From a virus (taxonomy: Duplodnaviria; Heunggongvirae; Uroviricota; Caudoviricetes), in the IMG/VR virus record IMGVR_UViG_2778261667_000008, positions 1 to 44,055 of that record: DNA of 44,055 nucleotides. One strand, written 5' to 3'. The notes under the pieces were generated by a model, which was not told the DNA's origin, ran no database searches, and was given only the letters and a program-made list of their open reading frames with translations. The stretch's first letter is position 1, and every line of letters starts with the position of its first letter. A program made the translations under genes and the position numbers. Positions 3,530 to 34,610 of this stretch are shown one piece after another.

Positions 3530-6500
3530 TTAGCCACTTAACATTCCTCCATCACGTCGCATATTTAACAGAGCGCCCTGCACCCGCTGATCAACCATCC
3601 CCATAAGTGCTTTTATTGCCTGAGGACCAATCTCTCCATTCTGGCCGTCATTTTGAATAGTGATTTGGTATACAGGGGCATAAGTAATATCTCTGCCTCC
3701 ATTACCACTTTTACTATTAATAGCTCTGACACCAAGAGAACCATCGGAAGTTCGCGTTAATGGCATAATAGCTTCCGGTCCAGCCTCACCAAAAACACCA
3801 GCTCCTTTTGCAAAAGCAAAAAATTGCGGGGAGTCATAAATACCGTTCGAATATGTACTCAATGACGGAGACTCATAAACACCGCCCTTTGCATTCGGAA
3901 TAAATTTACTAATAGCACTCCCGATAGTTCCTAAAATACCCCCAGAAGAACTGTTACTAATGCTGTCGAAAATCCCAGTAATTGAAGCCTTTAATGCAAT
4001 TCGACTAAGATCCGAAATCACGGAAGTAGCGAAAGAACGAAAATTTGCCTTGCCTGTCGTGACAAAATCACCTAGCGCATCGGTCATCCCATCAAACATC
4101 TGAGTCGTGGTTGATTTTATCTGCGCACCGATATCCTTAGTGTCATCCAGCCAGTTATTGAATCCCTGGGAGGCACCACTAATCCAGTCTCCTGCCTGAA
4201 TATCGAGCTGCTCGTTTTTCTGGCTGACAATTTCTTTTTCTCGTTCCAGAGCATCATTCAGAGCCTGCATTTTCTCCTGAAAAACATGATTTGACATTCC
4301 ACGGGATTTATCTGCATAGTCACGTTCAAGTTGCAGACGCTGATTGTTATATTCACGTTCAATCCGCAGTAATTCCTGCTGGCGTTGCTGATTTTTATCG
4401 CCAACCCCATAACCAGCAATCTGAATATCATACCCCTGCTGACGATTATCAATCGAAGCCTGCAATGAATCACGCCATGCGGCTATTTCGGCGGATTCTT
4501 TGATTAGCCTGCTATTTTTTTCAATCGCAACATTTTTCTCCATCAACGCGGTTATTTCTTCCCGGTGTAAGAGAAGTGATTTCTGCTCTTGGGTTAATTT
4601 CGATGACGGTCGTGACTCTAGGTCGGCAATCTGCTGACGCCACTTAACCAGTTCCTGTTCAGAGGAACTTAATTTAACGGTCAATTCAGCTTGTGAACTT
4701 AGTAACGCATTCTGTTGATTCAGATGATCAATCATTCGTTGGGCAGCATCATCCGAATAACCTTTCGCCTTTGGTTGCTTTGGATCTTTATAACGCTCAT
4801 TTATTTGAGCGATAAGATTATTATATTCTTCCTTTGAATACTGATTCTTTAGCTTTTCCAGTTTTGCAAGTTCACTAGCTCTCTGCTGCTCCCGGGTCTG
4901 ATATTGTTTTGAAAAAGCATCTGCTCTCTGTCTGAGTTCAATTCCTTCCTGTTGTCGCTTGTTGTAATCGTTTATTGATGAATTTAGTACGTCCTGAGCA
5001 ATTTTTTCTGCTTGAAGTACGCCCAATTGCTGCTTTAATCGTGCCAGCTTTTTATTTTGAGCTCCGCCATCTCCAATGCCACCTAACCCGAAAACTCCGG
5101 GTCGGGTATTTTTTTCTATTTCATCAATTTGACGGAGAACATCTGAGATTTTTTGATCAAGGGAGGCCTCACGGCCAATATCCAGCATGGAATCCCATGC
5201 CCATTTTGCGGAGTCTGCGACAGCTTTCCATGCAGTCTCAAGATAACCAAGATTTTCTTTAATCTGGTTGGTGCGCTGGATCATTGAGGATGAGTATGCT
5301 TCTGTCGCAATGCGGGCGGCCTCCTGCTGGTTCCCTTCATCCTGTAGCGCCTTAATTTGGTTATAAGTCGCAAGTGTCAGAAAATGGTACTGATCATTAA
5401 GTTTTGATATAGCACTGACAGGATCCTTTGCAATTTCATTGAAGTCATTAACCAGTTGTTCGGTTGATATTCCTGTTACTTCGCTCGTTTTTACTATCGC
5501 TGTCGTCACTTGCTCCAGCGAACTGCTCGCTACCTTTCCCGAACGCACAAGCTGGTTTAATACTGCCGCCGCAGCGCCAGTTGTCGAATCAGCCGCATTC
5601 CCGGCACGTTGAGCTATATCGGCCAATTGCCCGCTGGTTGTCCCCAACTGATTTCCGGTAAGAATAAGAGATTTATTAAATTCGTTCTGCTCCTGAGAGC
5701 CTTTATAGTAAGCCAGCCCTAAGACGCCAACGGCTGCTGCGGCCAGGGTAAAAGGATTAATTAATCCCAGCACATAAGAACCAACACCTTTGATCGCCGG
5801 GCCAATCCCACCGAACATATCTTTTAGCTGGCCGCCCTGCTGCATTAACACCATAAAAGGCGACTGACCAGTGGACAACCCAACAACAATATCCGTCATT
5901 TGTGCAGGCAACATGCGCATAGCAAAAGCCGTTTGTTTTGCCGACATTCCGGTTTTGCTTAGTTGCGATTGAGTAGCCTCAAGCTCACTCCGCATAGCAC
6001 GAAGTTTTCCTGAAAGCTCCTCATACATTTCAGGAGAAAGCATCCCCTTGGCTTTTGCTTCGCTGAGTTGCTTTTGCTGCTCTGTCAGGCGGTTAAAAGC
6101 AGTTCCGACAGGGTCAAGTTGAGCAATCAGACGTTGCAAAGCAACAACCTGTTCATCATGCGCTTTTGCTGCTTCTCGCTCTGCCTGAGCCTCTCCGGTA
6201 AGCTCTCGCCGTGTTTCCTGTATTTTTCGGCTATAATTCTCAAACTGAGAACCATTTATTTTCCCGGATGCAAACGCAGCATTAAGTTCATCCTGCTGTT
6301 GTTCAAGATTTCTTAGCGCCGCAGCCAGAGGGTCGATCTTGTCCAGCATTCTTTGAAAGGCCTGAGCCTGCGCTTCCTGCTGGGCGGCAGCAAGTTTTCC
6401 GGCCTTCTCGGCTTCTCTCTGCGCTTGCGCAACCCCGCTCAATTCCTCTGTGGTTTCATTAAGTTTACGGACAAGAAATTCATATTCTTCTTTATCAATA

Positions 6501-10504: not shown

Positions 10505-11644
10505 TTAACCAAGAATCAGACAACCATGTGCCGGCTTCACTGATGAAACACCCCATGCCAGTCCAACTTCATAGCGCACCTGGCGATACTGACGATACAG
10601 TGCAATCTGGAACGTAATCCCTGAAATCGGGTCCGTAACATTCATTACATCATCAGCATTATCGCCACCTTCCGGCATTGCCGGAGTACGGGATGCCAGC
10701 AGAAACGCGTTGCGATCAAACGCCATATTTGCAGTAAAGGAGCCAACAACTGTGATTGCAGTATCATCGGCCAGATCCTGACGCAGTCCGGGCGCTGCAA
10801 GAGTAATCAGATTGCTGGTCGCTGCTGCCACAACATACTGATTCGGATCGCCAGCGAACGTAACAATCTGACCTGCAGAAATACTCCCCGAACCAGTATC
10901 AATGGAAATAAGAACATCGCCTTCTTTTTTCTCGCCATTCACGAGATAACCAGTTGCAGCAACCTTTGGCGCTCGTTTTACACCTGCCGAACTGTGAATA
11001 TTGAATCCCTCCAGACGCCCCAACACGCCCTCACGCAGTAGCTGTTCAGTGCCGGATTCATTCACTTTAAACAGTACAGACTGTTTTCCGCGCAAATTAG
11101 CAATGGCAGTGGAGCCAAGCACCATCTGCAGATCGGTTGCCGGTGCGCCGTTATCCTCCAGAACCTGACGAGCCAGAGCAGCATCAGAAAGATCATCTTT
11201 AACACCAAACGGCGTTGTCCCTGCGGTTCCCACGGCGCGGGAAGCACCGAAATACAACGCACCAAGATCAGCCTCAACCTCGTTTGCAAGGGCGCGAAAA
11301 GCCTGCTTGAACTGATCAGCCAGAATAGTGTTGTAAGTCCCTGAAGGGCCAAGAGCCAGTTGTTCTTCACCATTCCATTTAACCGGTGCCATTTTGGATT
11401 TAGTAATTTTCACATCAACAGTGCCAATATTTTGATCACCGGTATTCGGAGCTGACGGCCCCGGTACGATATCTTCGGTTTTCGCCTCAGGCGCAACTGG
11501 CGCGGTTACCGTCTGATCTTTTGCTGCGGCGTCAGCTTTTGCGTTTTTTGCTACCGCAGGGATAAAACCTACCTGCTCACGGGATACAACATCCAGGGCG
11601 GTATAAATAGTCGGGATCAACCCGGTCAGGGTATTTCCAGCCAT
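10505..11644 (-). CDS. Major capsid protein
   Basis: ORF track gives 410 aa from 11737; first ATG with SD (AAGGAA) is at 11644 (MAGNTLTGLIPTIY...). Size, position after the scaffold gene and the downstream terminator fit a capsid gene. No family recognised by eye. Confidence 0.55.
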   Translation of the reverse strand: MAGNTLTGLIPTIYTALDVVSREQVGFIPAVAKNAKADAAAKDQTVTAPVAPEAKTEDIVPGPSAPNTGDQNIGTVDVKITKSKMAPVKWNGEEQLALGPSGTYNTILADQFKQAFRALANEVEADLGALYFGASRAVGTAGTTPFGVKDDLSDAALARQVLEDNGAPATDLQMVLGSTAIANLRGKQSVLFKVNESGTEQLLREGVLGRLEGFNIHSSAGVKRAPKVAATGYLVNGEKKEGDVLISIDTGSGSISAGQIVTFAGDPNQYVVAAATSNLITLAAPGLRQDLADDTAITVVGSFTANMAFDRNAFLLASRTPAMPEGGDNADDVMNVTDPISGITFQIALYRQYRQVRYEVGLAWGVSSVKPAHGCLILG

Positions 11645-23254: not shown

Positions 23255-23767
23255 ATGGAACTATTTTTGGTTGATCGCCGAGGAATATACTCAACTGGCG
23301 ATATTGTTACACCAAAGCGATTCTCCGATATAAGTCCTGTCGAAATGTCATCTCTGGTAGACAAACTTTTTCCGTGCGGGCTTGCACCACATGGCGAGGG
23401 ATACCTTATTAACAATGCGGCAAAAAATTATAATAAAAACGAATTCATCGACTGGGGGTTAGAGTTTTACCGAAGAGGAGTTTACCCGCAAAAACCTTCT
23501 CGCTATACGTCACTCTTCGCATGGGGTAACCTGGAGGAGGCTAAACATTTTCGACTTACAGACGGGAAACCATCAGATAAAATCTTCATAATACAAACAG
23601 ATAGTTATCATCGCGGAGATATGTCATTATTAAGAAATGATACATCAGTACTGGAATTCACCTACAGAATGGAACTTTACTGGGCAGGTAAAACCTTTAA
23701 CCCTGATCCAGTCTGGGAATACATTTGTCCGCTACCAGTAACTATCGGTGAACAAGTCCTTGCTTAA
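23255..23767 (+). CDS. Hypothetical 170-aa protein (moron between Q-like gene and lysis cassette)
   Basis: ATG at 23255 with GGAG SD; AT-rich; antisense to the late-operon direction; no family recognised. Confidence 0.55.
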   Translation: MELFLVDRRGIYSTGDIVTPKRFSDISPVEMSSLVDKLFPCGLAPHGEGYLINNAAKNYNKNEFIDWGLEFYRRGVYPQKPSRYTSLFAWGNLEEAKHFRLTDGKPSDKIFIIQTDSYHRGDMSLLRNDTSVLEFTYRMELYWAGKTFNPDPVWEYICPLPVTIGEQVLA

Positions 23768-24021
23768 TCCCCTTCATCCCAATAAAGACCTTTCGCGACA
23801 CAATGGGGGCGGTAAGGATAGCAATAACTTGCTCTGACGTTACCAACCAGCGTACCACTTTCTTTGAATGCCTTATCTCCGTTCCTGAGCTGTGATAAGG
23901 CCTTTTCAAGTTCAGCTATCGCGACAGCCACGTCTTCGCTTTCTACATACAGTGAAAAACCTTTAATGGGTGAACTCATGGTAAGTTGGCTCATAGATAT
24001 TTGATGATGGTGTGAGTGCAT
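23764..24021 (-). CDS. Hypothetical 85-aa protein
   Basis: Track ORF 23764..24066; the best start is the ATG at 24021 (MHSHHHQISM...) preceded by GGGAGA; its stop overlaps the stop of the convergent 170-aa gene. Confidence 0.4.
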   Translation of the reverse strand: MHSHHHQISMSQLTMSSPIKGFSLYVESEDVAVAIAELEKALSQLRNGDKAFKESGTLVGNVRASYCYPYRPHCVAKGLYWDEGD

Positions 24022-24410
24022 AAATAGTCTCCCAGTGAAAGAAAATTCGAGTTGTGCTGTTACCATATCAAGGATGCTACTTATTTCTATATGAAAACAA
24101 TAATAATCATTTAATATGCATAATTATAATTAGCCATCAAGCATTCAAGAAACCATCAAGATATTGATATAAATCACCACAAAACCAATATCGCCTCATA
24201 AAATACCTACGATTCTTTGTCTGTCGGAATCTTTTGTAAATCCTTGTTCTTCTCACCATGAATTTTCACGGGCTCCTCTTCCGGGGAGCTATTTTTTATC
24301 GTAAATAACCACTCATTACAGATGAATTGACCAAAATCAATATCCGTCACAGACATAGAGCAATAGAATTAATAACGTACGCGGTTACTTATATACTTCC
24401 TTTATTCACA

Positions 24411-24438
24411 AGCGACTCTTTAACGGGTCGCTTTTTTT
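24411..24438 (+). terminator. Intrinsic terminator-like hairpin
   Basis: AGCGAC-TCTTTAACGG-GTCGCT followed by TTTTTTT. Confidence 0.5.
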
Positions 24439-24566
24439 CGGACTATCACCGACACAATGTCAAAAAAAAGATCTGCATCACAAAAAAACTTATAAAAAAA
24501 TCACAAAATCCAAAACTCCACTACATAAACACTAATAAATATTGCTTCACATATTTTCATACTAGT

Positions 24567-24588
24567 GCCCTCGCAAGAGGGCTTTTTT
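24567..24588 (+). terminator. Intrinsic terminator-like hairpin
   Basis: GCCCTC-GCAA-GAGGGC followed by TTTTTT. Confidence 0.55.
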
Positions 24589-24728
24589 ATCTGGATGAAA
24601 AACAATCAACCATTAATAATGACATAGTAATATTGACTAAGGTCAAGGAAAAACAAATCATGACACCTAAAGATATAAGAGTTTTTCTGGAGGCGAATTT
24701 TAAAATGCATTAGATTTTACGGCTCTTT

Positions 24729-24755
24729 CACGGGCCGTTTTTTTGCCTGAAATTA
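24729..24755 (+). terminator. Intrinsic terminator-like hairpin
   Basis: ACGGC-TCTTTCACGG-GCCGT followed by TTTTTTT; loop nearly identical to the hairpin at 24411. Confidence 0.5.
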
Positions 24756-24864
24756 TGCCAGAAGCCGTGCTGCATCATCTCACCAACATCAACGTCTCCT
24801 CAGTCCTGAATTAAGACTACGTGGTGATTTTTAGCCTAAAATCCCTGCCAAATACTTTCTATAT

Positions 24865-24890
24865 AAACAAAAAACCGCCCGTCAAGGCGG
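24865..24890 (-). terminator. Intrinsic terminator downstream of the Q-like gene (second of two)
   Basis: Minus-strand CCGCC-TTGACG-GGCGG followed by TTTTTTGTTT. Confidence 0.6.
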
Positions 24891-25155
24891 TAAAAAGATG
24901 GTTAGCTAAAGAGGTCATTATTATTATGATCTGAGGCGTCGGGTGCCTCCCGAAGTATATCAGCTCCTGACTAATACACTGTGGCTTCCCTCCCGCTAAA
25001 CAGTTATACCTTGCCACCCCCGCCCTGGGGAACACCTCAAGATCCTTAACAGATTAAAATACAGCATTAATAATATAAGTGATCTACATCACATTATTTA
25101 GGCATAGAAATATGCATCAAAACAACAACAATATATCAACACTAATATCTCATTT

Positions 25156-25185
25156 CTTACAGATACAAAAAAACCACCTTTAGGT
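25156..25185. terminator. Bidirectional intrinsic terminator just downstream of the Q-like gene (candidate tR')
   Basis: ACCACC-TTTA-GGTGGT flanked by an A-run on one side and a T-run on the other, so it reads as stem plus U-tail on either strand. Confidence 0.6.
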
Positions 25186-25270
25186 GGTTTTTTTGTATCC
25201 GTGGGATTGTTCGCCTCGCGATACAGCTTTGCGAAGCATAGCGAAATTGAAGCAGTTTATACGTAAGAAA

Positions 25271-25933
25271 TCAAGCCATTTTCTCAGCAAATGATTCACG
25301 CATGGGAATATATAGGACATACTCAGCAACAGCTAACCAATTAGCAATCCGTTTTTCGCATGTGCTAAAACACCACTCTGGGTGTGCATCATGTAGCAAT
25401 TCAGCCATTTTACGCTTAGTCATCCCCCGCCCTTCATAGCGTTGCCGGAGAATGCAAATCAATCCTGGATGCTCTGCCAGCACCTCACTTATGACTCGAT
25501 CAATACATAACGCCTCTGCATCAGTACAATGCGCCAGCCAGCTCTTTTGCTTGCCGTTGATCATCTCTCTCAAAAACGCTTCCAGCTCAGCTTTCTCTAT
25601 TCCCGCTTTTTTCATTCTGCGCAGGGCTTCATTGATGGCTGTTTTCGTCAATTTTTGGGATGCCAACAACTGATTGAACATATTTCCTGACCTGCCACCG
25701 CCAATATACGACCAGCGCCCCCACATACGCAGTTTGCCCTGAATCCAGACACTTTCCAGCGTGGCGAGACGAAGGTGTTCTCCGCTTTTTCCTGTATTCG
25801 TTGGGTAAATCACAAATATCCCTCCTTTCTCCAGATTTCTTGTGTGCGAAAAACACCTTCTGCATGCATCAGGCGTAATTCTTCTTTGGTGTAATCGCTG
25901 GTTTTTACCCGCCCGTCGATTAGATCGTGGCAT
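25271..25933 (-). CDS. Putative late-gene antiterminator (Q-like by position)
   Basis: Last gene before two tandem terminators and about 2.2 kb upstream of the lysis cassette; Cys/His-containing. The track start at 25933 overlaps the upstream gene by 124 nt; alternative ATGs at 25726 and 25681 would give a 151- or 137-aa product. Family not recognised by eye. Confidence 0.45.
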   Translation of the reverse strand: MPRSNRRAGKNQRLHQRRITPDACRRCFSHTRNLEKGGIFVIYPTNTGKSGEHLRLATLESVWIQGKLRMWGRWSYIGGGRSGNMFNQLLASQKLTKTAINEALRRMKKAGIEKAELEAFLREMINGKQKSWLAHCTDAEALCIDRVISEVLAEHPGLICILRQRYEGRGMTKRKMAELLHDAHPEWCFSTCEKRIANWLAVAEYVLYIPMRESFAEKMA

Positions 25934-26100
25934 GAGCTACAGGCAATCGCCGCCTGCATATCGTGTGGTTTTGTCGCTATTCCGCACGTTCCCGCCAGTC
26001 GGTAATGCGCCAGCACAGACGTTTCCGGATCGTGATTGCAGTAGCCAGGAATTCTGACGGTGCACATCTGCCCCCGCGCCGCTTTACGTAAATCCACCAT
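25810..26100 (-). CDS. YbcO-like (DUF1364) zinc-binding phage protein
   Basis: 96 aa with CxVRIPGxC...C..C pattern resembling my recollection of DLP12 YbcO; ATG overlaps the upstream stop (TAATG). Confidence 0.55.
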   Translation of the reverse strand: MVDLRKAARGQMCTVRIPGYCNHDPETSVLAHYRLAGTCGIATKPHDMQAAIACSSCHDLIDGRVKTSDYTKEELRLMHAEGVFRTQEIWRKEGYL

Positions 26101-26699
26101 TACGCAAACTCCAGCAGCTGCGCGGCCACATTTTCGACTTGTTCCGGAGAGGAAAATTTACGGAACAGAATCCTGTTCCACAGCACATTCAGAACAGATT
26201 TATAAACCTGCTGAAACTCGGTTTCGTCCATATTCGCAAAAGCGATGGATTTCGCCCGACGCCCATGGCTACCGTCCGGATAAAAATGTTCGGTGTAAAA
26301 TCCAGCCTGAATGGTTACCCACTCGCGAAAAGCCTCAAACGACTTTAGCAATGCCGTATCCCGGGTTCTGCGTGTCGCAACTGTATTCAGATATTGCTCT
26401 GCGGCATCACTCAGGGCTGGCGTGTGTTCCCGACCAACTGATTCGCACAGGTAATCAACGAAACCAGACAGCAGTTCTCGTTCGCGAGGCGTGATCGCCC
26501 CACCGACCGGAGTCCAGTAATCGAATCCCAGTTGCAGGAGTTTGAAAAAACGCTTGTGGAATGCGTAGTTACGCACACGCTTAAAGTCTGCGTGTATCCA
26601 CTCACCTATTTTGATTTGATGCAGAAAATCGCAACTCTCCGGCGTCGCCGGGAGAAGTAAACCAGAAGAAGTTTGTTTGACCAGTTGTATATGCGCCAT
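26100..26699 (-). CDS. Nin-region hypothetical protein (DUF1367-like)
   Basis: 199 aa, ATG at 26699; position between the cargo region and the Q-like gene. Confidence 0.45.
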   Translation of the reverse strand: MAHIQLVKQTSSGLLLPATPESCDFLHQIKIGEWIHADFKRVRNYAFHKRFFKLLQLGFDYWTPVGGAITPRERELLSGFVDYLCESVGREHTPALSDAAEQYLNTVATRRTRDTALLKSFEAFREWVTIQAGFYTEHFYPDGSHGRRAKSIAFANMDETEFQQVYKSVLNVLWNRILFRKFSSPEQVENVAAQLLEFA

Positions 26700-26973
26700 T
26701 TCTCAATCTCTCGATGGCGCAGTGCAGCAGATGCCAGTTGTTCAGGCTGACGTATAAAGTATAAATAAACTGGTTCCAGTGTAAAGCCCCCACATTGATG
26801 GAATAAAAATCAAACAATAGATTGCTGGGATAAAATACAACGCTTATTATTAAAAGCGGTTAGACAAATTAAATTTTAATGTTATGCAAATCTGCCAGAT
26901 CAGCATAATATCTCATTTGAAAACCGCTGAAATAACAATCCTATCAGGATTAATCATATTAAGGTGAGTAAAT

Positions 26974-27060
26974 ATGGAAAACAACAAATCTGCACATTAC
27001 GCTCCTTTTTTATCTGTAATACTTTTTGTTTTTTGCTGTGTATGGGCATTATTTTTATAA
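26974..27060 (+). CDS. Small hydrophobic peptide (28 aa), candidate membrane peptide
   Basis: Below the ORF-track cutoff. AAGGTGAG SD 5 nt before ATG; hand translation MENNKSAHYAPFLSVILFVFCCVWALFL; AT-rich setting. Confidence 0.3.
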   Translation: MENNKSAHYAPFLSVILFVFCCVWALFL

Positions 27061-27168
27061 AAATATTCACAGATAAAATAAACTCGCCGAATCAGGTTAA
27101 GTGTGGGTGCGTTGAGGATGCCTGACACATCAGAGGCGGCGAGGGATTTCTCCCTCGCCTGGTCACTC

Positions 27169-27324
27169 TTACTCCTCAGGTTCGTAAGCTGTGAAGACAG
27201 CGACCTCCGTCTGACCGGTTCGGATTCGCACCTCGCAGAGGTCTTTCCTCGTTACCAGTGCCGTCACTATGACGGTTAAACAGATGACAATCAGTGCGAC
27301 TAACATCGCCTTTTGCTGCTTCAT
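27169..27324 (-). CDS. hokD: Hok/Gef-family type I toxin
   Basis: MKQQKAMLVALIVICLTVIVTALVTRKDLCEVRIRTGQTEVAVFTAYEPEE is near-identical to my recollection of HokD (RelF); AAGGAGAAG SD; the track ORF extends 19 codons upstream in frame; perfect 9-bp stem-loop (27138..27159) in the 3' region. Confidence 0.8.
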   Translation of the reverse strand: MKQQKAMLVALIVICLTVIVTALVTRKDLCEVRIRTGQTEVAVFTAYEPEE

Positions 27325-27955
27325 AGCCTGCTTCTCCTTGCCTTCCGGCGCGTAAGAGGCTAACCTACATGTGCAAAGCATGAAATTGGCCTCAGATTAA
27401 TGTTAAGCGTCTTGCCGGACGCGTAATGTTATCTGGGGCTTTTCTCTATCTGCCGTTGGTGTTCATGCCCGAGGCAGATAGCCTCAAGCACCCGCAGCAA
27501 TTCTACTTAACCCCCGTCACCTCGCCAATATAAAATCAATCAGAAAGGCGATCCATAAGAACAACAGCAAGACAATAAATTGCCATTACAGCCGCAATAG
27601 CTAGCGCACATTTGAGAACCAGCACGACAACCTCCTGTATTGGGCGTACACCAGTCCTGATAAATATGAGGATGTCTCGTCAGTGATTCAATGCAACTAT
27701 TGGGTATAGTTTCTGTGATTTTGTTCTGTAGAAATGGAACACAACAACCAGTCACCATCCGCTCTTCTTTAAATGCGCTAAGTCAGACACAAGCCAACAT
27801 TTTAGTTGGCTTTGAGCGTTCTGGAGATGCGACATTGCTAACAGCCTTTTGAATGAACTAATCGGGGGCTAGTCATAACGGGCATAGCAGTCTCCAAGTA
27901 AGCAAGACTTTGCCATACAGAATGGAGCTAAGTTATTCATCAAATCTCCTTAAAT

Positions 27956-28933
27956 TCATAAAGTTAAATGCGGCCCTAAATACGCCACATATATCCGCTG
28001 ATTTACTGCGTCAGCATAAAAATGTAGGCGGTAACCGTCAGGTAGTTTTACATGATTCTCGCAATAGACCTGCCGTCCATCATCTAACCAAAATATGCGC
28101 TCTTTCTTCTTTTTGGGGGCATTATTTACACTGTCCGATTCACCGCTAACTTCAGCAGCCAAACCCAAATCTCTTAAATATTCATGACGGTACTCTACAT
28201 ACTCACCTGAACGCCATTTCTCACTAAACGATTCCAACACATTTAGCGCATCTCGTGCCTTGAACAAGACATTTTGCCTAGCAGACCAACCTTGTAGACT
28301 TGTACCTATTTGATTTGACAACAAAGTGAGATGAGGAAACAAATCTGCTCTTTTCAGCCAGATATCCTTAGCAGTACTTAACAACGTATTACGATGTTGT
28401 TTGAGTTCATCTCCATGCACATCCAAGCTCGCAGAATTACTCAGATTTAAAATCGTTTCATCCCTTTGTTCTGGTATTGCATCAAGCTCGAAAACCCATA
28501 CTTTAAAATGGCTATTTGTCCAAGTAGCTAAAGCCGTAAAACTAGCAAGAAAAGTTTTAAAATAAAACGCTGCTAATAGCACCGCTTTACCTGTATCTTC
28601 CCCTGGCAAGCCAACTTCTAATACATCACCTAAAGTTTCAATATCCACGGTTTCAAAGAGAGGCTGTTTCGTTTCAAGAGACTTTAGAAATCGACACCAA
28701 TCCGCAAGTTCTGCAACTTTGCTCGCAGAGGCAAGCCAATTGCGCACAAAATATCCGTTAGCCAGCTCCAATCCCATTAGCGACTTGTCTTGATCTTCAT
28801 CGATGAGCAAAATTTTCAGCCCAGCAGTTCGGCAGACCTTAAGAACAGTAAAGAAAGCCAATAGTCCTTCATCTGCATCCTCTTTGCTAGCAAATGGCAA
28901 AGAATGATGGTTCAACACAATTCCATTACTCAT
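27956..28933 (-). CDS. Hypothetical 325-aa protein, third gene of the DUF262/ATPase operon
   Basis: ATG overlaps the stop of the upstream ATPase gene (ATGA); AT-rich; no domain recognised by eye. Confidence 0.7.
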   Translation of the reverse strand: MSNGIVLNHHSLPFASKEDADEGLLAFFTVLKVCRTAGLKILLIDEDQDKSLMGLELANGYFVRNWLASASKVAELADWCRFLKSLETKQPLFETVDIETLGDVLEVGLPGEDTGKAVLLAAFYFKTFLASFTALATWTNSHFKVWVFELDAIPEQRDETILNLSNSASLDVHGDELKQHRNTLLSTAKDIWLKRADLFPHLTLLSNQIGTSLQGWSARQNVLFKARDALNVLESFSEKWRSGEYVEYRHEYLRDLGLAAEVSGESDSVNNAPKKKKERIFWLDDGRQVYCENHVKLPDGYRLHFYADAVNQRIYVAYLGPHLTL

Positions 28934-30039
28934 AACAGATGATCCAACTCCTTATCCCATTGGTCAAAGAAGCCTTCCGGCCAACAGTCTATTCGTCCCT
29001 CATCATCAATATTGGGGTACATGACTTCTGAGGCGTGAATGGAGTTATGAACATCTCGCTGTAAGAAAAAGACTTTGACATCGTCAGCTGCAACCACTTT
29101 CTGCTTCACCGCAACCCGTATACCGTTGAGAAAATGATCAGAATGAGATTCAACGATTAATTGCACGCCATTATTCGCAGCAATGGAGCACAATTTACCC
29201 ATCAAGGATTGCCCAGCGGGATGCAAGTGTGATTCTGGGTTTTCAATAATCAGCAAATCACCTTTTGCCGCACTTAGTATACTGGTTACGACAGGTAACA
29301 CATAACTTAATCCAAACCCCACATTCTGTGGTTTAAAGTCTTCGGTGGTGTCTTTCCCTTGGTTAAAAGAGTAACTAAGACTCACCGAATTAAACTGAGG
29401 CTGCGCTACTGCTTTAATTTTTAACCCTGGCGTAATATCCGACATCCATGCTTCAATATTAGAAAGCAAAGTCCCTGAAACAGCCTTTTGATGGCGTAAC
29501 GCTTCTATTTCCAGGTCTTTAGCGCCATTAACCGCGATAAAATGAACTGCAAATTCGCCATGATGACCAAGTGATTTTAAATCACGGATATGAAACTCAG
29601 ACAACTGGTGATGGCTTTGTGGGCCTAACCTATCGGCACATAAATACTGAAAATTAGAGTTAAATAAGCTTAATAATTCTGAATCACCGTCAATACCAGA
29701 TTTACGCAGCGGCAGCAGATCTGAGTCATGTTGATAATCAAACTCAAACCGTGTTGGCTGTTCTTTCTCGAGCCATTTAATGGTAAAAATAATCTCTTCT
29801 TGTTCACTAAAACTAGAGAGCGCGTCTTTACCCGTACCGATATTGACATAATCACCATTTAACAGCAAACCCTTAGTTTTAAGGGTATTGCGTTCATAAG
29901 ACTGCCTTAAAAGCAATAAACTTTGCACAAGCGTTGATTTTCCCATGCCATTAAGGCCTGAGAACAGATTCAGATTACCCAGTGGAAAACTGGCATTTAA
30001 CAAGGTTTTAAAGTTTTGAATATTAATAAACTCAATCAT
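28930..30039 (-). CDS. AAA_21/ABC-type ATPase (OLD/AriA/PtuA-like ATPase architecture, no nuclease domain evident)
   Basis: Walker A GLNGMGKST near the N-terminus; LLIIENPESHLHP (DEPExxLHP-type Walker B/D-loop signature); C-terminal ...CWPEGFFDQW; start overlaps the upstream gene's stop by 8 nt. Confidence 0.8.
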   Translation of the reverse strand: MIEFINIQNFKTLLNASFPLGNLNLFSGLNGMGKSTLVQSLLLLRQSYERNTLKTKGLLLNGDYVNIGTGKDALSSFSEQEEIIFTIKWLEKEQPTRFEFDYQHDSDLLPLRKSGIDGDSELLSLFNSNFQYLCADRLGPQSHHQLSEFHIRDLKSLGHHGEFAVHFIAVNGAKDLEIEALRHQKAVSGTLLSNIEAWMSDITPGLKIKAVAQPQFNSVSLSYSFNQGKDTTEDFKPQNVGFGLSYVLPVVTSILSAAKGDLLIIENPESHLHPAGQSLMGKLCSIAANNGVQLIVESHSDHFLNGIRVAVKQKVVAADDVKVFFLQRDVHNSIHASEVMYPNIDDEGRIDCWPEGFFDQWDKELDHLL

Positions 30040-31159
30040 TAAGCATCTCTTTAATCAAAGCATTGACTTTTTCATACCGTATTTCCACATGCTCTTTTCG
30101 CTGAGTGGAGTAGCTAATAACATTAATAAATTCAGCATCTTCCAATAACGTCTGCACCTTTTTTTGAAACTTTTTTTGATTATAAACCAAGCGGTTAAAC
30201 TCGTTTTCAGTTAATTTCACCAACATAACCATCCAGACTTCAAATAGTGTTGCATTTTTTGACCGTCTTCTTGATGCAGGGTTTTTTTCAAAACCCTTTT
30301 CTCCTAACAGTTGGTAACAGCGCTCTATTGCAGTTGAATACTTAGCTTTAAACTCTGCACGGTAGGCATCATCACCTTTTTTGATATCTTCCATGGCTTT
30401 ATCTAAAAACGAAGAAATTTCTTTTTTGTTTTTAGGGTCTAAATAATCAAAGCGATAGAACGCCCAGAATCGCAATACCAGTTCCTGATCCTTCATACGT
30501 TTGGAAAGGTCACCTAGCATGGCTTTCGAGCATGCTGAATTGGCTAACTCTTCGAGCAATTCTCTGTCTCTTGGCTTAGCGAGCGCATTACGGATCTCTT
30601 GATTATTTAGAGTTAAGCCACCTGTATTGATCCGGCGAAACACCGAATACTTAACGTCCTCAGGCGTACCCGGCTTAATCATGTACACAGTAACAGGACA
30701 TTCTTCAATACGGCGTTGATATTGACGATGTAATTTATCGAAGGTTTTACCATTAAGGTCTGTTAAGAACTCCAGTCCATTGAGACGAAGCTTTTTATCT
30801 AACACAAACTTGCGAATCGTAGATAACCGCTGCAAGCCATCCACAATTAGCCAATTATTTTCATCGGACGCATCGAAGTAGAAAGCAGGTAATGGGAACC
30901 GAATCAAAATTGATTCGATTAATCGGCTCATCTTGCGGTTATCCCATAACTCCGCATGGCGCTGAAAATCGGTATTCATGTCGATCTCATTGTGCTGAAT
31001 TCGCTTAATCAAGGCATCCAACGACTTCGGTTCAACGACGATATCAATATCAGTCGGGTTGAACGGGTGCATCACCTCATCAAGCAGTTCCGGCTCTTCC
31101 TCTTCCGCACCTGGCGCAACCAACTCTTCATCAAGCTCGGTTTCTTGATAATCAACCAT
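30032..31159 (-). CDS. DUF262-like (ParB/Srx-fold, GmrSD N-domain-like) protein
   Basis: 375 aa; FQR...W...IVDGLQRLSTI matches the DGQQR signature region of DUF262; acidic N-terminal tail; ATG at 31159 with AAGGGGAAG SD. Confidence 0.7.
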   Translation of the reverse strand: MVDYQETELDEELVAPGAEEEEPELLDEVMHPFNPTDIDIVVEPKSLDALIKRIQHNEIDMNTDFQRHAELWDNRKMSRLIESILIRFPLPAFYFDASDENNWLIVDGLQRLSTIRKFVLDKKLRLNGLEFLTDLNGKTFDKLHRQYQRRIEECPVTVYMIKPGTPEDVKYSVFRRINTGGLTLNNQEIRNALAKPRDRELLEELANSACSKAMLGDLSKRMKDQELVLRFWAFYRFDYLDPKNKKEISSFLDKAMEDIKKGDDAYRAEFKAKYSTAIERCYQLLGEKGFEKNPASRRRSKNATLFEVWMVMLVKLTENEFNRLVYNQKKFQKKVQTLLEDAEFINVISYSTQRKEHVEIRYEKVNALIKEMLND

Positions 31160-31342
31160 GTTCTTCCCCTTTTATTAATCGTGTCTTACCTGTAAGCAAC
31201 TCTTGTATCATACCTTGTTTGATTTGGCGGATTCTACCTAGCGGCTACCGCTTTTGGCACAAAACAGACAATCACGCTAGCTCTGCTCTGTCCGTGCCAT
31301 GAAAATGGCAATTTATATCTGAGCTAATGCTCTTTAATCTCG

Positions 31343-31765
31343 TCACTTCAATAAATACCGAACATCTCCCTGATAAAACGACAATATGCGCTGCATAACT
31401 TCGCTTTTACGGCACTCGCGACAGATTATGTTCAGACGCCTGTCGTAGCGGCGTATTTCTCCGTCTGGTAATGACCAGATAAGGTCCGGATCAACCACAG
31501 ATGGTTTCTTCACCTTTGCCCTAGATAGTTTTTTGCGGGCATTTTGCCAGTCCTTACGAGCCTGTTCAGACGGGAATAACCCGTAACCAGAGTTGTATAC
31601 ATCGCCACTGGCAACCAGCTCTCTGGCGAGAACGCTCATCAGATATCTTGTCGCACCTGTCTTGGCTTCCAGTTGCCGTAACGTCTCGCGCCCACTCCGG
31701 CGTACTAGTTCAACAACCTGCCCTTTAATTTTTTCCCGCTCTTCTTGTGTAAATACTTTTGCCAT
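31343..31765 (-). CDS. Hypothetical protein (YdaW-position)
   Basis: Track start at 31780 is TTG; first ATG at 31765 (MAKVFTQEEREKIKG...) with GGAGG SD; Cys pair CRECRK near the C-terminus. Confidence 0.5.
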   Translation of the reverse strand: MAKVFTQEEREKIKGQVVELVRRSGRETLRQLEAKTGATRYLMSVLARELVASGDVYNSGYGLFPSEQARKDWQNARKKLSRAKVKKPSVVDPDLIWSLPDGEIRRYDRRLNIICRECRKSEVMQRILSFYQGDVRYLLK

Positions 31766-31780
31766 AAGCGCCTCCGGCAA

Positions 31781-32542
31781 TCACTTTTCCGATACAACAC
31801 GGCGGGAAGAATCAGTAATCTGTCGAACAATATCCCGGTGCTTGTTCAGCTCCCGCAGCGCGGCGCAGACTCGCTCCCACTTCTGGACATGATTTTTCGC
31901 CCGACGCAGTTCACGGTTTGCCATATGCAGCGATGGTAAAATCAGGTTATCCGCTTGCGTTTCAGTAAACGATGGCAACGACTGCACAATGTCCGCCACA
32001 GTTTCTGTTTTAATATCTTCCTGTGTTGCAGCTTCCTGTACTGGTAACGCAACACCGGCTAGCTGAGGAAAGGCTTTACCATCTGTTTCCGCTACCGATG
32101 CAGCTTTCGGCTCTGCTGGTAAATTACCGCCCGGCATGCAGTAACGAAATTTACCGTTCTGATTAACGCGAATCAGACGAGCTTTGCTGATTGCCATTGC
32201 CAGCGTTGAAGCCACTTTGCGGGATGTGGTACCGAACAACGTAGCCAGTTCATCCGCAGTTAGTGGACCACGTTGTTCAATCGTCGCAGTTAAATCGCTC
32301 TCTGAAATTTTCGCGACTGTTGCCGTGGTAGTTTCTTCCGGCAGTTCTGCCGGCGCTGGCTGTTCCTGCTGAGCGTTGTTATCAGCCACACGCCAGGTGT
32401 ACGCGCTTTTATCAACGAAACCAGCCTTTTTCAGTTCCCATAGTTCGTTCAGCACTTCTTCACGGCTGATATCAAGTCGCGCAGCAAGTTCTATGGATGT
32501 GGCTTTTCCCATTGCTTTCAGTGCGTCAAAAACAGTCTCCAT
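31781..32542 (-). CDS. Hypothetical protein with N-terminal winged-helix-like segment
   Basis: Track start at 32575 is TTG; ATG at 32542 ([30 protein letters not shown]...) with GGGAGA SD; downstream of ydaV. Confidence 0.5.
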
Positions 32543-32564
32543 TAAATTTTTCTCCCGGTAAAAA

Positions 32565-33311
32565 TTACTTCGCAATTCCTAGCTGGACGACATTCGGACG
32601 CCAGCTCTCCCAGTTAAAATTCACCCATCGCCCGCCGTTCATGGTCATGCGATCCATAATCCTCTCGCCGAGCAATGTTTTCATGGCCTCATAATTCAGG
32701 TTTGTCAGCATCCCCACGCTGCGCATCGACGCTGTCCGGCGATCAACAATCTGGTGCAGCACCACCTGCTCGTTTTTTGTCTCGCGCTGAATGCCAATTT
32801 CATCAAGAACCAGCAGATCCACTTGGCACAGTTCCCGCAAAAATTTTTCGCCTGATTGCCCGTCGTCATAGCTGGCGTGTAGGGCACTCATGACATCAGC
32901 CACGGTAACCACAATCACTGTCTGGCCATCTTTCAGCAGGCGATTCCCGATAGCCGCCGCCAGATGGTTTTTTCCGGTACCAGGTTTTCCGCTGAACGCA
33001 AAATTTGTACACCCGGTCATCAGTTCATCAGCGATGGATTTCGCCTGACTCAACGCGTATCGCTGCCCTTCGTTCTGCACCTGGTAATTCGAAAACGAGC
33101 ATTTGCGGTGCAATGGCTGGATGCCAGAGCGATTCAGAATTTTTTCCACCCGCAACTGACGATTCTGACGGTTGATCTCCTCACAACGTTTCTGGCCTTC
33201 GGAAAGTTGCCACTCGCGCCACTCCGCTACCGTCTTGAATGGCGCGGTTACATGTGACGGGGCCAGTCTGCGGATACGTTCAAGAACATCGCCTGTCGCA
33301 ACATTTTTCAT
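32565..33311 (-). CDS. ydaV: DnaC/IstB-like replication ATPase
   Basis: Walker [16 protein letters not shown], Walker B LLVLDEIG; follows ydaU as in Rac. Confidence 0.85.
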
Positions 33312-33317
33312 GGTCAG

Positions 33318-34175
33318 TTACCCCCTGAAGCCTGGCGGGATCGCACTATCCGGTAACGAGACGGTGTTAACCTGTCGGAGTAACGTCTCAGGTCGAACAC
33401 CTTTCGGCGCGAACAAGCCCTGGTATTCATTGGCGATGCTGTGTCGAATCACCTGCTCAGGTGAAAAACCCTGCTGGCGGAATTTTTCCAGCTCCCGTAT
33501 CGCCCCGTTAGCGCCCTGCTCCGTTCGAATCGGTTTTCGCAATGCCTGGCGAAATTCAACCCACTCACGCCAAAGCGAGACAGAAATCCAGTTCGGCAAA
33601 GCAATATCCAGAGGGTCAAACTTTTTGACACCTCGATTCCCCCGGGGGGGATTTAGGGGGGGATCTGTTTTTAGATCTTTATCTGTATCTTTATTAGTTG
33701 CCTTTGTGTTGACATCATGTTCAAACACCACTTCAACATCTGTTTGAACACCTGTTAAATTTCTCTCTTGTTTTGTTTGAACATCTGCTTCCTTTCTGCT
33801 TCTTCTGGCCTGAACAGATGCTTTTCCTGCGGCTGATTTTTTGGTTAATTTTTCCCTGACTGATGCCAGATCTTCCTCAATCCGAAGATGCACCCATTCC
33901 TCGCCGTTATCGCAAAAAAACTCCTGCAAGGATGGTTCAACATCAGCCCATCGCTCGTTAGTCAGACGGGCAATTTTTGCCAGCCTGTTTTTAGGTATTG
34001 GCTTTCCTGTTTGCCAGTAATTGAACATCAGCAACAAATACGCACCATGCTCCTCTGCTGACAAATGCATGGTGTCAGCCAGGTAATCAGCTATGTACAG
34101 TTGCATGTATGGTAATGCGGCCATAATTGCCCCGTATGATGCTGCCCGGTGGCTTAGAATAAGCACAAACAGCAT
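33318..34175 (-). CDS. ydaU: Replication initiation protein (O-like, YdaU family)
   Basis: 285 aa, paired with DnaC-like ydaV; true start may be the internal ATG near 34124 (MAALPYMQLYIADY...). Confidence 0.7.
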   Translation of the reverse strand: MLFVLILSHRAASYGAIMAALPYMQLYIADYLADTMHLSAEEHGAYLLLMFNYWQTGKPIPKNRLAKIARLTNERWADVEPSLQEFFCDNGEEWVHLRIEEDLASVREKLTKKSAAGKASVQARRSRKEADVQTKQERNLTGVQTDVEVVFEHDVNTKATNKDTDKDLKTDPPLNPPRGNRGVKKFDPLDIALPNWISVSLWREWVEFRQALRKPIRTEQGANGAIRELEKFRQQGFSPEQVIRHSIANEYQGLFAPKGVRPETLLRQVNTVSLPDSAIPPGFRG

Positions 34176-34187
34176 GGAAACTTTTGC

Positions 34188-34610
34188 TTAATGAACAATG
34201 ACAGAATCGTCGGAAGAACCGCCGCCGCTGAAATGCGCTTTCCGGTAAACGGCTTGGACTGCATCATCATGCGCATCAATTGCCGTACTTAACGCTTCCT
34301 GCGCCGCCAGTAATGCACGGCGTTCCAGGGTATCGAAGATGCAGAGTCGGTGACGCAGCTCGCGCGGAAGGATTGCCAGAATTGCTGGGATCAGCTTCTG
34401 AATTTTTTCTCTTTGCGTTTTCGTTTCACCTTTCAACCAACGGTGATAGATATTCTGCTGATTGTTCCAGTCCTTGCCTGGAACCAGGGGCAATTCGCCG
34501 CCCCCCTGGCGCAGATATTCTTCAGTAATTGCATTGGCTACCCATGCCTGCCCTTTTTCGGCTGCTAGGGCAAACAACACTGATTCGATGTGCTCATGCT
34601 TGATTTTCAT
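34188..34610 (-). CDS. ydaT: YdaT (cI-repressed early protein, toxic when derepressed)
   Basis: 140 aa, follows ydaS in the leftward early operon; matches my recollection of Rac YdaT. Confidence 0.75.
   Translation of the reverse strand: MKIKHEHIESVLFALAAEKGQAWVANAITEEYLRQGGGELPLVPGKDWNNQQNIYHRWLKGETKTQREKIQKLIPAILAILPRELRHRLCIFDTLERRALLAAQEALSTAIDAHDDAVQAVYRKAHFSGGGSSDDSVIVH

What the first reader, a model, noticed from the sequence alone, without database searches (positions are those of the whole stretch)
27100..27540. hok-family type I toxin gene directly downstream of the candidate defence operon, in the slot where Qin carries relBE-hokD
Seen: a 51-codon ORF near-identical to my recollection of HokD, with a good SD, an in-frame upstream extension of 19 codons (mok-like leader frame of 70 codons), a perfect 9-bp stem-loop in the 3' region (27138..27159) and a long inverted repeat in the 5' leader (about 27440..27480). 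It lies on the same strand, about 0.6 kb downstream of the three-gene operon. Established: in K-12 Qin, hokD sits downstream of relB-relE. Inference: the same hok gene is here linked to a different upstream module, suggesting a cassette-exchange hotspot in which toxin-antitoxin and defence modules replace one another upstream of hok.
Basis: partly seen in the sequence, partly recalled or inferred. Interest (0 to 1): 0.5.

Follow-up and report, generated by a model that had tools for sequence, protein, structure and literature searches.

The report
Intact hok/sok toxin locus in prophage
This is a complete, ordinary copy of the well-known hok/mok/sok RNA-controlled toxin locus (the untruncated form of E. 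coli hokD, 93% identical to the tested hokW-sokW of Shiga-toxin phages), and it sits beside a slot in Rac/Qin-type prophages where different cargo genes, here the Menshen defence system, are swapped in and out.

Summary
The minus strand at 27095..27528 holds a complete hok/mok/sok type I toxin-antitoxin unit:
- a Hok ORF identical to K-12 HokD at 50 of 51 residues;
- an in-frame 70-codon mok;
- the hok 5' leader (Rfam 111 bits, threshold 59);
- a 5'-3' tac/fbi pairing;
- the 3' hairpin;
- a 71-nt antisense Sok gene whose promoter hexamers match sokW.

[quoted passage not shown] A full-length copy occurs in 4020 of 5426 complete E. coli genomes. The locus is therefore already known.

The cassette idea is partly right. 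Between the DUF977 (Ren-like) gene and hok, related prophages carry very different cargo:
- Menshen NsnABC here;
- DUF5677, RelA/SpoT, DUF4209 and QueH genes;
- ATPase plus Dcm;
- transporters;
- IetAS, which in its locus has also displaced hok.

Six of these cargos share the junctions at about 31248 and 27818.

Qin's relBE is not an alternative cassette in that slot. It lies in a roughly 4.5-kb insertion inside the hok locus that removed the leader and sok from K-12 hokD. Nothing ties hok functionally to Menshen. Interest is low to moderate.

The parts
27500..27528 (-). hok promoter: -35 TTGGCG (27523..27528), 17-nt spacer, -10 TAGAAT (27500..27505); inferred +1 at about 27493
   Evidence: The consensus scan scores it 9 of 12. 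The -10 and the sequence downstream are conserved in 933W hokW and K-12 hokC. The +1 is taken from the start of the Rfam leader model.
27095..27493 (-). Predicted full-length hok mRNA, about 399 nt. Together with its promoter it forms the 417-bp portable unit 27095..27511.
   Evidence: Homology to 933W hokW spans exactly 27095..27511 at 92.8%. The MFE fold has a z-score of -6.4. RNAalifold on 12 loci predicts 106 pairs, 17 with compensatory changes.
27482..27493 (-). tac element (GGGUGCUUGAGG) at the 5' end of the mRNA
   Evidence: It pairs with fbi in the full-length fold and with the ucb in the 3'-shortened fold. It is invariant in 11 related loci.
27446..27481 (-). Leader stem-loop (CTATCTGCC ...
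   Evidence: Compensatory changes keep the stem: A-U becomes G-C in L014, A-U becomes U-A in R1-type, and C-G becomes U-A in L020.
27435..27441 (-). ucb / anti-SD (AAGCCCC). It pairs with the mok SD in the full-length mRNA and with tac in the truncated mRNA.
   Evidence: ViennaRNA folds of the 399-nt and 361-nt forms. GCCCC is invariant in all 12 aligned loci, including R1-type.
27373..27443 (+). Sok antisense RNA gene, 71 nt: a 15-nt single-stranded 5' tail, a long hairpin and a UUUU tail. It is complementary to the mok start region.
   Evidence: Coordinates are transferred from the annotated sokW of 933W, which starts 9 nt inside mokW (there are no indels in the alignment). Fold: -29 kcal/mol, z-score -4.75. 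K-12 sokC lies in the same relative position.
27338..27366 (+). Sok promoter: -35 TTGCCT (27338..27343), 17-nt spacer, -10 TAACCT (27361..27366)
   Evidence: Both hexamers are identical in 933W, where mutating the sokW promoter unleashed HokW toxicity (PMC8621323). The generic scan did not flag it, because the -10 matches only 3 of 6.
27169..27381 (-). mok reading frame, 70 codons, in frame with hok; SD GAGG at 27390..27393
   Evidence: It has the same length and frame as mokW. K-12 mokC and hokC share a stop. The exact 70-aa product is seen on 716 contigs.
27169..27324 (-). hok toxin ORF, 51 aa; SD AAGGAG at 27334..27339
   Evidence: Pfam HOK_GEF 1.6e-23. PHROG 251 'MokW-like host killing' 1.6e-32. 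Identity is 50/51 to HokD and 46/51 to HokW. PGAP names it HokD.
27138..27159 (-). 3' hairpin directly after the stop codon; the expected protective 3' end of the processed mRNA of about 361 nt
   Evidence: One of its pairs occurs as four different standard pairs across the aligned loci: AU 6, GC 3, GU 2, CG 1. Its role as the last stem-loop of the truncated hok mRNA is taken from PMC9841398.
27105..27117 (-). fbi element (CCUCAACGCACCC), complementary to tac
   Evidence: 12 base pairs with one bulge in the MFE fold and in the consensus fold.
27512..27818 (-). 307-bp conserved block that usually travels with hok and forms the left flank of the cargo site. It contains a 29-codon hydrophobic ORF (27536..27625) and a boundary hairpin (about 27790..27812).
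   Evidence: Shared at 92-97% by L002, L007, L008, L012, L017 and L018, which carry different cargos. It is present without hok in L019.
27819..31246 (-). Variable cargo segment, here Menshen: nsnA 30032..31159, nsnB 28930..30039, nsnC 27956..28933. GC is 40.8% against about 50% in the flanks.
   Evidence: PADLOC HMMs: NsnA 3.5e-123, NsnB 8.9e-122, NsnC 1.1e-89. Junctions. GC content. Only 16 genomes carry this arrangement.
31247..31780 (-). Right flank of the cargo site: the DUF977 / Ren-like gene (31343..31780) plus about 95 bp ending in a (here degenerate) hairpin
   Evidence: PHROG 142 'Ren-like exclusion protein' 2.5e-45. In six loci the homology ends at 31247..31252. The hairpin GTCCGCTTT/AAAGCGGAC is seen in relatives.

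Best explanation
The locus is an intact, autonomous hok/mok/sok type I toxin-antitoxin unit carried by a Rac-site (ttcA) lambdoid prophage. It is the untruncated form of K-12 hokD and an orthologue of hokW-mokW-sokW of Stx phages 933W/Sp5.

The mechanism below follows the R1 and hokW models. Only the sequence and the predicted folds are shown here.

1. A weak constitutive promoter makes a stable hok mRNA of about 399 nt.
2. That mRNA is locked shut by pairing of its 5' end (tac) with its 3' end (fbi). The mok Shine-Dalgarno is held by an upstream CCCC box.
3. Slow 3' trimming to the hairpin at 27138..27159 lets tac pair with that box instead. This opens mok, whose translation is coupled to hok.
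4. The short-lived 71-nt Sok RNA, made from the opposite strand, binds the mok start region of the opened mRNA. It blocks translation and triggers RNase III cleavage.
5. When Sok synthesis stops, Hok is made and depolarises the inner membrane. Sok synthesis stops on prophage induction, which was shown for hokW-sokW. In principle it could also stop on loss of the element, or when an infecting phage shuts off host transcription.

The most likely role in a prophage is to speed growth arrest and lysis and so raise phage release on induction. Prophage retention and abortive infection are secondary possibilities.

The unit is not part of the neighbouring Menshen system. It is one conserved flank of a cargo-exchange site between the Ren-like DUF977 gene and the nin/Q region.
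For: **Toxin and reading frames**
- Toxin family membership and near-identity to HokD and HokW.
- PGAP annotates it as hokD.
- The mok frame matches mokW and mokC in length and frame.

**RNA elements**
- Full-length match to the Rfam hok-leader model, 111 bits against a threshold of 59.
- The hok promoter is found by the consensus scan.
- The Sok promoter hexamers, the Sok hairpin and the U-tail are as in the annotated sokW.
- The folds reproduce the two-state model. In the full-length form tac pairs with fbi and the mok SD pairs with the CCCC box; in the 361-nt form tac pairs with the CCCC box.
- 17 of 106 consensus pairs carry compensatory changes.

**Relation to a tested system**
- 92.8% nucleotide identity over 27095..27511 to hokW-sokW.
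- For hokW-sokW, published experiments show toxicity and Sok-promoter-dependent protection. They also show RecA/induction-dependent loss of sokW RNA, HokW in the inner membrane, and halved phage release on deletion (PMC8621323).

**Maintenance and autonomy**
- A full-length unit is present in 4020 of 5426 E. coli genomes.
- The same unit occurs with many different neighbours and at other positions: beyond att in 933W, next to repL in a P1-like element, and next to paa.
Against: - No expression data exist for this window.
- The Sok promoter has a poor -10 (TAACCT) and was missed by the generic scan. Its activity rests on homology to sokW.
- The truncated-form fold depends on the 3' end I chose.
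- The lysis-assisting role was shown for a copy at a different prophage position (beyond att in Sp5), and the effect there was only about two-fold.
- All five K-12 chromosomal hok loci are usually regarded as inactive (my recollection of Pedersen and Gerdes 1999, not checked here). Presence of a locus therefore does not guarantee activity.
Confidence: 0.9

Rival explanations
1. One reading: hok marks a cassette-exchange hotspot where toxin-antitoxin and defence modules replace one another upstream of it. On this view the hok block mainly serves as a conserved recombination flank, and perhaps as an anti-deletion 'lock' for the adjacent cargo.
For: - Many unrelated cargos lie between DUF977 and hok.
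- Six different cargos share both junctions.
- In relatives the junctions carry hairpins with the same stem, GTCCGCTTT/AAAGCGGAC.
- The cargo has foreign GC content, 40.8%.
- Some cargos are known defence systems: Menshen and IetAS.
Against: - This does not compete with the toxin-antitoxin mechanism. It describes the neighbourhood.
- The left junction is not fixed. It falls at 27818, 27668, 27558, 27511, 27347, 27279 or 27087. Hok is sometimes truncated or lost.
- The 307-bp block, not hok itself, abuts the cargo, and it can occur without hok.
- Qin's relBE is an insertion inside hok rather than a cassette in the slot.
- Cargo also includes QueH, transporters and a methylase.
- A published survey found no enrichment of hok near defence systems.
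- The anti-deletion role is pure inference.
Confidence: 0.6
2. Hok is a functional part, effector or back-up of the upstream Menshen system, co-transcribed with it.
For: Same strand, 632 bp downstream of nsnC, with no canonical terminator detected between them.
Against: - Hok has its own promoter and complete regulatory unit.
- The identical unit occurs with a dozen other cargos and with none.
- Only 16 of 5426 genomes pair it with Menshen.
- PADLOC has no Hok component.
Confidence: 0.03
3. The locus is a decayed, silent remnant like the hok loci of K-12.
For: K-12 hokD is truncated. Related loci L010 and L011 are also truncated. The Sok -10 is weak.
Against: - Every element is intact and aligns without disruption to the experimentally active hokW-sokW.
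- Base pairs are kept through compensatory changes.
- There is no IS element or frameshift.
Confidence: 0.07

Closest known systems
hokW-mokW-sokW of Stx2 phages 933W / Sakai Sp5
   Same: 92.8% nucleotide identity over the whole 417-bp unit. The Sok promoter hexamers, tac and fbi are identical. mok has 70 codons in the same frame. Hok is identical at 46 of 51 residues.
   Different: The position differs. hokW lies beyond att at the far end of the prophage, on the pL strand. Here hok lies in the pR early-right operon between the Ren-like gene and the nin/Q genes. The Hok C-terminus is TAYEPEE here and VDYESEK in HokW. The -35 region and the sequence past fbi also differ.
hokD (relF) of E. coli K-12 cryptic prophage Qin
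   Same: Hok is identical at 50 of 51 residues, and the 3' UTR is the same. The general position between the early region and the Q region of a lambdoid prophage is also the same.
   Different: K-12 keeps only window-equivalent 27080..27338. It has no hok promoter, tac, mok start or sok, and relE abuts the hok SD. The window has the complete locus.
hok/sok (parB) of plasmid R1 and hokC(gef)/mokC/sokC of K-12
   Same: The architecture and regulatory logic are the same: tac, leader stem, CCCC box, mok SD, CAAGGAGAAG, a hairpin after the stop codon and fbi.
   Different: Only the conserved boxes align with R1-type. The Sok hairpin is longer here, with an 18-nt insert relative to hokC and R1-type. 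In the R1-type plasmid I read, the mok ATG is also in frame with hok. From memory, in R1 itself mok is out of frame with hok.
Defence hotspots of P2-like phages and P4-like satellites (Rousset 2022; Vassallo 2022)
   Same: Conserved flanking genes in one phage family, highly variable cargo between them, and known defence systems among the cargo.
   Different: This is a different phage family (Rac/Qin-type lambdoid) at a different position (Ren-like gene to hok). The cargo is mixed rather than clearly defence-enriched. I found no paper describing this site.

Membership tests
[quoted passage not shown] | Small Hok/Gef-family membrane toxin ORF of about 50 aa | tested here: met
   Pfam HOK_GEF 82.4 bits against a cut-off of 22. 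PHROG 251, 1.6e-32. 50/51 identical to HokD.
[quoted passage not shown] | Overlapping upstream mok frame with its own SD, through which hok translation is coupled | tested here: met
   70-codon frame 27169..27381 with GAGG 8 nt upstream. It has the same length and frame as mokW and the same design as mokC. The coupling itself was not tested.
[quoted passage not shown] | Conserved structured 5' leader of hok mRNA | tested here: met
   RF01794 matches positions 1-157 of 157 on the hok-sense strand, 111.4 bits against a gathering score of 59. The leader stem shows three compensatory variants.
[quoted passage not shown] | cis-encoded antisense Sok RNA with promoter and terminator-like hairpin, overlapping the mok start | tested here: met
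   The sequence is collinear with the annotated sokW and has identical -35 and -10 hexamers. It forms a hairpin plus U-tail, z-score -4.75. Transcription cannot be tested with these tools.
[quoted passage not shown] | Long-range tac/fbi pairing that closes the full-length mRNA | tested here: met
   12 bp between 27482..27493 and 27105..27117 in the MFE fold and the consensus fold. Both elements are invariant in this clade, so there is no covariation within it.
[quoted passage not shown] | Refolding after 3' processing (tac pairs with ucb, mok SD released) | tested here: inconclusive
   In the 361-nt fold tac pairs with AAGCCCC. That is a prediction with an assumed 3' end, and in it the mok SD pairs with the new 3' tail.
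[quoted passage not shown] | Hok toxicity neutralised by Sok | not testable with these tools
   Shown for the 93%-identical hokW-sokW (PMC8621323).
K-12 Qin-type relBE-hokD arrangement | relBE fused directly upstream of the hok SD, with the leader and sok absent | tested here: not met
   The window has the full leader and sok, with Menshen 0.6 kb upstream.
Prophage cargo / defence hotspot (in the sense of the P2/P4 hotspots) | Conserved flanks with variable cargo across related elements | tested here: met
   About 15 sampled loci. Six different cargos share the junctions at about 31248 and about 27818.
Prophage cargo / defence hotspot (in the sense of the P2/P4 hotspots) | Cargo enriched in anti-phage systems | tested here: inconclusive
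   Menshen and IetAS are known systems. RelA/SpoT, DUF5677, DUF4209, Sll1717-type ATPase and ATPase+Dcm cargos are only suggestive by name. QueH, transporters and an acetyltransferase are not defence. No statistics were done.
Menshen defence system (the upstream operon) | NsnA, NsnB and NsnC encoded together | tested here: met
   Full-length PADLOC hits at 3.5e-123, 8.9e-122 and 1.1e-89 for three overlapping or abutting genes.

The most novel reading that the evidence does not exclude
The interval between the Ren-like DUF977 gene and hok in Rac/Qin-type lambdoid prophages may be an undescribed cargo and defence hotspot. Its recombination junctions recur and are marked by hairpins, and the hok/sok unit is its usual downstream end.

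The orientation of hok may also be functional. In every sampled locus hok is co-directional with the N-antiterminated early operon: pR here, and pL after excision in 933W/Sp5. Read-through on induction would then run head-on into the Sok promoter. That would account for the induction-dependent loss of Sok RNA, which the hokW study left unexplained.
Probability: 0.25. Interest if true: 0.5.

Novelty: already known. Interest (0 to 1): 0.22.

Why it matters
The locus itself adds nothing new. It is annotated as hokD in thousands of genomes, and its close orthologue hokW-sokW has been characterised.

Three modest points come out of the check:
- K-12 hokD, the textbook copy, is a broken version of this unit, so the window shows what the intact ancestor looks like.
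- The stretch between the Ren-like gene and hok is a recurrent cargo site in a very common prophage family. It could be mined for defence candidates much as the P2/P4 hotspots were.
- The constant orientation of hok within antiterminated early operons suggests a testable link between induction and Sok loss.

Tried and rejected
- **72-aa Cys-rich ORF, 27540..27758 (-):** rejected as a gene, because it is frameshifted in L008 and L012.
- **29-aa ORF:** no hit in NCBIfam or PHROGs.
- **Sok promoter and hok terminator:** the generic scan did not flag the Sok promoter and found no canonical terminator for hok. The Sok promoter therefore rests on homology to sokW, and the mRNA 3' end on where the 933W homology stops.
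- **Empty cargo site:** a chimeric flank query found none. The smallest interval has a 230-bp filler, in strain A20.
- **tac/fbi covariation:** none within the hokD/hokW clade, because both elements are invariant there. MAFFT misaligns the R1-type fbi, so the apparent 'broken' pairs for that row are an alignment artefact.
- **Hok as a Menshen component:** rejected (see rival explanations).
- **Literature:** searches for a described Ren-like/DUF977-to-hok hotspot found nothing. The library is incomplete, so this is not proof of novelty.
- **tRNA genes:** the Gly and Thr tRNA genes annotated in the near-identical genome are not found in window 23500..26000.
- **Searches not run:** I did not run the large protein or structure searches. 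Identity to known proteins made them unnecessary.

Full report
**1. What is at the coordinates**

- A 51-codon ORF lies at 27169..27324, and a 70-codon in-frame extension starts at 27381.
- The short ORF is a Hok/Gef family protein: Pfam 82.4 bits against a cut-off of 22, E=1.6e-23, and PHROG 251 'MokW-like host killing' at 1.6e-32.
- It differs from K-12 HokD at one residue (I9V) and from HokW of phage 933W at five.
- The 9-bp hairpin at 27138..27159 and the leader inverted repeat (27473..27481 with 27446..27454) are exactly as described.
- NCBI's pipeline annotates the same sequence as hokD in near-identical genomes.
- The exact 51-aa and 70-aa products are on record from about a thousand and about 700 contigs respectively.

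**2. It is a complete hok/mok/sok unit, not only a toxin gene**

- The Rfam model RF01794 is named 'sok' but matches the hok-sense strand and ends at the hok AUG, so it models the hok mRNA leader. It aligns end to end at 27319..27493 with 111 bits against a gathering score of 59.
- Just upstream is a promoter, TTGGCG-17-TAGAAT, at 27500..27528.
- On the opposite strand, TTGCCT-17-TAACCT (27338..27366) precedes a 71-nt stretch (27373..27443) that is collinear with the annotated sokW RNA of 933W. K-12 sokC lies in the same relative position.
- That stretch folds into a 15-nt free 5' tail, a long hairpin and a U-tail, with a z-score of -4.75.
- The 5' end GGGUGCUUGAGG (tac, 27482..27493) is complementary to CCUCAACGCACCC (fbi, 27105..27117), about 375 nt downstream.

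ViennaRNA reproduces the published two-state model of the R1 hok mRNA as summarised in PMC9841398.
- In the 399-nt form the two ends pair, and the mok Shine-Dalgarno (27390..27393) pairs with a CCCC box (27435..27441).
- In a 361-nt form ending after the 3' hairpin, tac pairs with that box instead.
- The full-length fold is much more stable than shuffled sequences, z-score -6.4.
- In an alignment of 12 loci, 17 of 106 consensus pairs keep pairing through changes on both sides. Three independent variants of the leader stem do this, as do several in the 3' hairpin.

**3. Closest relatives**

- Over 27095..27511 the window is 92.8% identical to hokW-mokW-sokW of phage 933W. The homology stops at both ends of that 417-bp unit.
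- The orthologous locus of Sakai prophage Sp5 has been tested (PMC8621323). HokW is toxic, and protection needs the sokW promoter. sokW RNA disappears and HokW appears in the inner membrane on RecA-dependent induction. Deleting the locus delays growth arrest by about 40 minutes and halves phage release.
- At megablast level the unit is found at 10,966 places in 4725 of 5426 complete E. coli genomes, and 4020 genomes hold a full-length copy.
- It also occurs in a P1-like phage-plasmid next to repL and in another prophage next to paa.
- A recent survey already reports that hok genes are common, toxic and enriched in prophages (bioRxiv 10.1101/2025.08.07.668861).

The locus is therefore already known.

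**4. Relation to K-12 hokD**

- K-12 aligns with the window only from the hok Shine-Dalgarno to the 3' end (27080..27338). Everything upstream is replaced by relE.
- In strain EC26 the missing leader with sok is still present about 4.5 kb upstream of hokD. The intervening relBE-ydfV-flxA segment is flanked by a 15-bp direct repeat, GGAGAAGCAGGCTAT.
- The Qin arrangement is therefore an insertion into the hok unit, as the literature already holds (PMC6379469). It is not an alternative cassette upstream of hok.

**5. The neighbourhood**

The window is a lambdoid prophage of the Rac type. In a nearly identical genome it sits at ttcA.

The gene order, all on the minus strand, is: ydaS, ydaT, ydaU, ydaV, DUF1627, DUF977 (PHROG 'Ren-like exclusion protein'), three cargo genes, the hok unit, then DUF1367, DUF1364 and DUF1133 towards the lysis genes.

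The three cargo genes are the Menshen system. PADLOC scores NsnA at 3.5e-123, NsnB at 8.9e-122 and NsnC at 1.1e-89, all full length. Their GC content is 40.8% against about 50% around them.

**6. Is it a cassette site?**

A spread sample of matches to 25200..34200, plus annotated loci, shows the following between DUF977 and hok:
- Menshen (16 genomes);
- DUF5677;
- a RelA/SpoT-domain protein;
- DUF4209;
- QueH;
- DUF551 plus a small ORF;
- an ATPase with a Dcm methylase;
- a five-gene block of transporters and a regulator;
- an acetyltransferase with a regulator (phage Evi);
- a methyltransferase with hypothetical genes (phage HannyBb);
- others, on either strand.

Two further cargos do not leave hok intact. 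The Sll1717-type ATPase locus lacks the DUF977 gene and truncates hok, and the IetAS cassette has displaced hok altogether.

Homology on the DUF977 side ends at 31247..31252 in six loci. On the hok side it ends at 27817/27818 in five loci that carry five different cargos. In those relatives both junctions are hairpins with the same stem, GTCCGCTTT/AAAGCGGAC. The window's own copies have diverged.

The site is not tidy. Other left ends fall at 27668, 27558 and 27511. Two cargos cut into hok: at 27347 the leader and sok are lost, and at 27279 the ORF is truncated. The IetAS cassette has replaced hok altogether, with homology ending at 27087. The 307-bp block at 27512..27818 that abuts the cargo can also occur without hok.

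No truly empty site was found. The smallest interval holds a 230-bp filler.

The evidence does not show that cargo is mainly defence. It also does not show that hok has any functional tie to the cargo. The published survey found hok no more often near defence systems than expected, 12% against 9.4%.

**7. Most likely function, and what is inferred**

- **Shown here:** sequence, reading frames, predicted folds, conservation and context.
- **Taken from published work on close relatives:** toxicity, Sok control, and the role in lysis on induction.
- **Inferred:** that this copy is expressed and does the same.

Rival readings are a silent remnant, a Menshen component, and a mere recombination flank. 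Each is weighed in its own section of this report.

One speculative point follows from orientation. Hok is co-directional with the pR operon in every sampled locus of this type. In 933W, hokW lies on the pL strand just beyond att, so it would join the pL operon only after excision. Antiterminated read-through would meet the Sok promoter head-on. This could explain the induction-dependent loss of sokW RNA that the Sp5 study left open. It has not been tested.

**8. Verdict**

- The feature is already known.
- Interest is low to moderate, carried by the cargo site rather than by hok.

Noticed in passing
window 27536..27625 (-): An unannotated 29-codon hydrophobic ORF (MLVLKCALAIAAVMAIYCLAVVLMDRLSD) with a GTG start 5 nt after AGGAGG, ending 8 nt before the hok -35. 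It is intact in 7 related loci. In frame there are 6 synonymous against 3 non-synonymous codon variants; in the other two frames the count is 2 against 7. It has no family hit. The exact peptide has been called once as a hypothetical protein and is seen on 146 contigs.
   Followed up: partly
window 27790..27818 and 31246..31270; L017 4715..4760 and 6130..6175: In related loci the two cargo junctions are hairpins that share the stem GTCCGCTTT/AAAGCGGAC, so the cargo is bracketed by a repeated palindromic element. In the window the right copy is degenerate, and the left is a different hairpin, AAGCCAAC/GTTGGCTT. Whether these are terminators, recombination sites or both is unknown.
   Followed up: partly
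window 27956..31159 (-): The 'candidate defence operon' upstream is a full Menshen system, NsnA, NsnB and NsnC, by PADLOC HMMs. GC is 40.8%. At this site it is found in only 16 of 5426 E. coli genomes.
   Followed up: partly
window 27184..27186 (-), hok codon 47: The Tyr codon TAC lies in a UACGAA motif that is invariant from R1-type hok to this locus. It falls in a predicted hairpin loop. It fits the TadA A-to-I editing (Tyr to Cys) reported for hok genes, as cited in the introduction of bioRxiv 10.1101/2025.08.07.668861.
   Followed up: no
L009 2757..7292 (E. coli EC26, Qin): The relBE-ydfV-flxA segment is flanked by a 15-bp direct repeat, GGAGAAGCAGGCTAT. The detached hok promoter, leader and sok remain about 4.5 kb upstream of hokD. 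No such leader copy is present in the 10-kb stretch of K-12 MG1655 Qin that I fetched (1641000..1651000).
   Followed up: partly
L015 and L023 (phage 933W); L020 (P1-like); L021/L022: The same 417-bp hok unit sits at quite different places: beyond att on the pL strand in 933W, next to repL in a P1-like phage-plasmid, and next to the adhesin gene paa in another prophage. It therefore moves as a discrete module.
   Followed up: partly
L001 1313..2749 (near-identical prophage in strain TUM9757): PGAP annotates an 'anti-CBASS protein Acb1 family protein' among the head and terminase genes of the near-identical prophage. I did not map or check it in the window.
   Followed up: no
window 23500..26000: The near-identical genome has tRNA-Gly and tRNA-Thr genes between the Q-like gene and the lysis genes. 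ARAGORN finds no tRNA in the corresponding part of the window, so the two prophages differ there.
   Followed up: no
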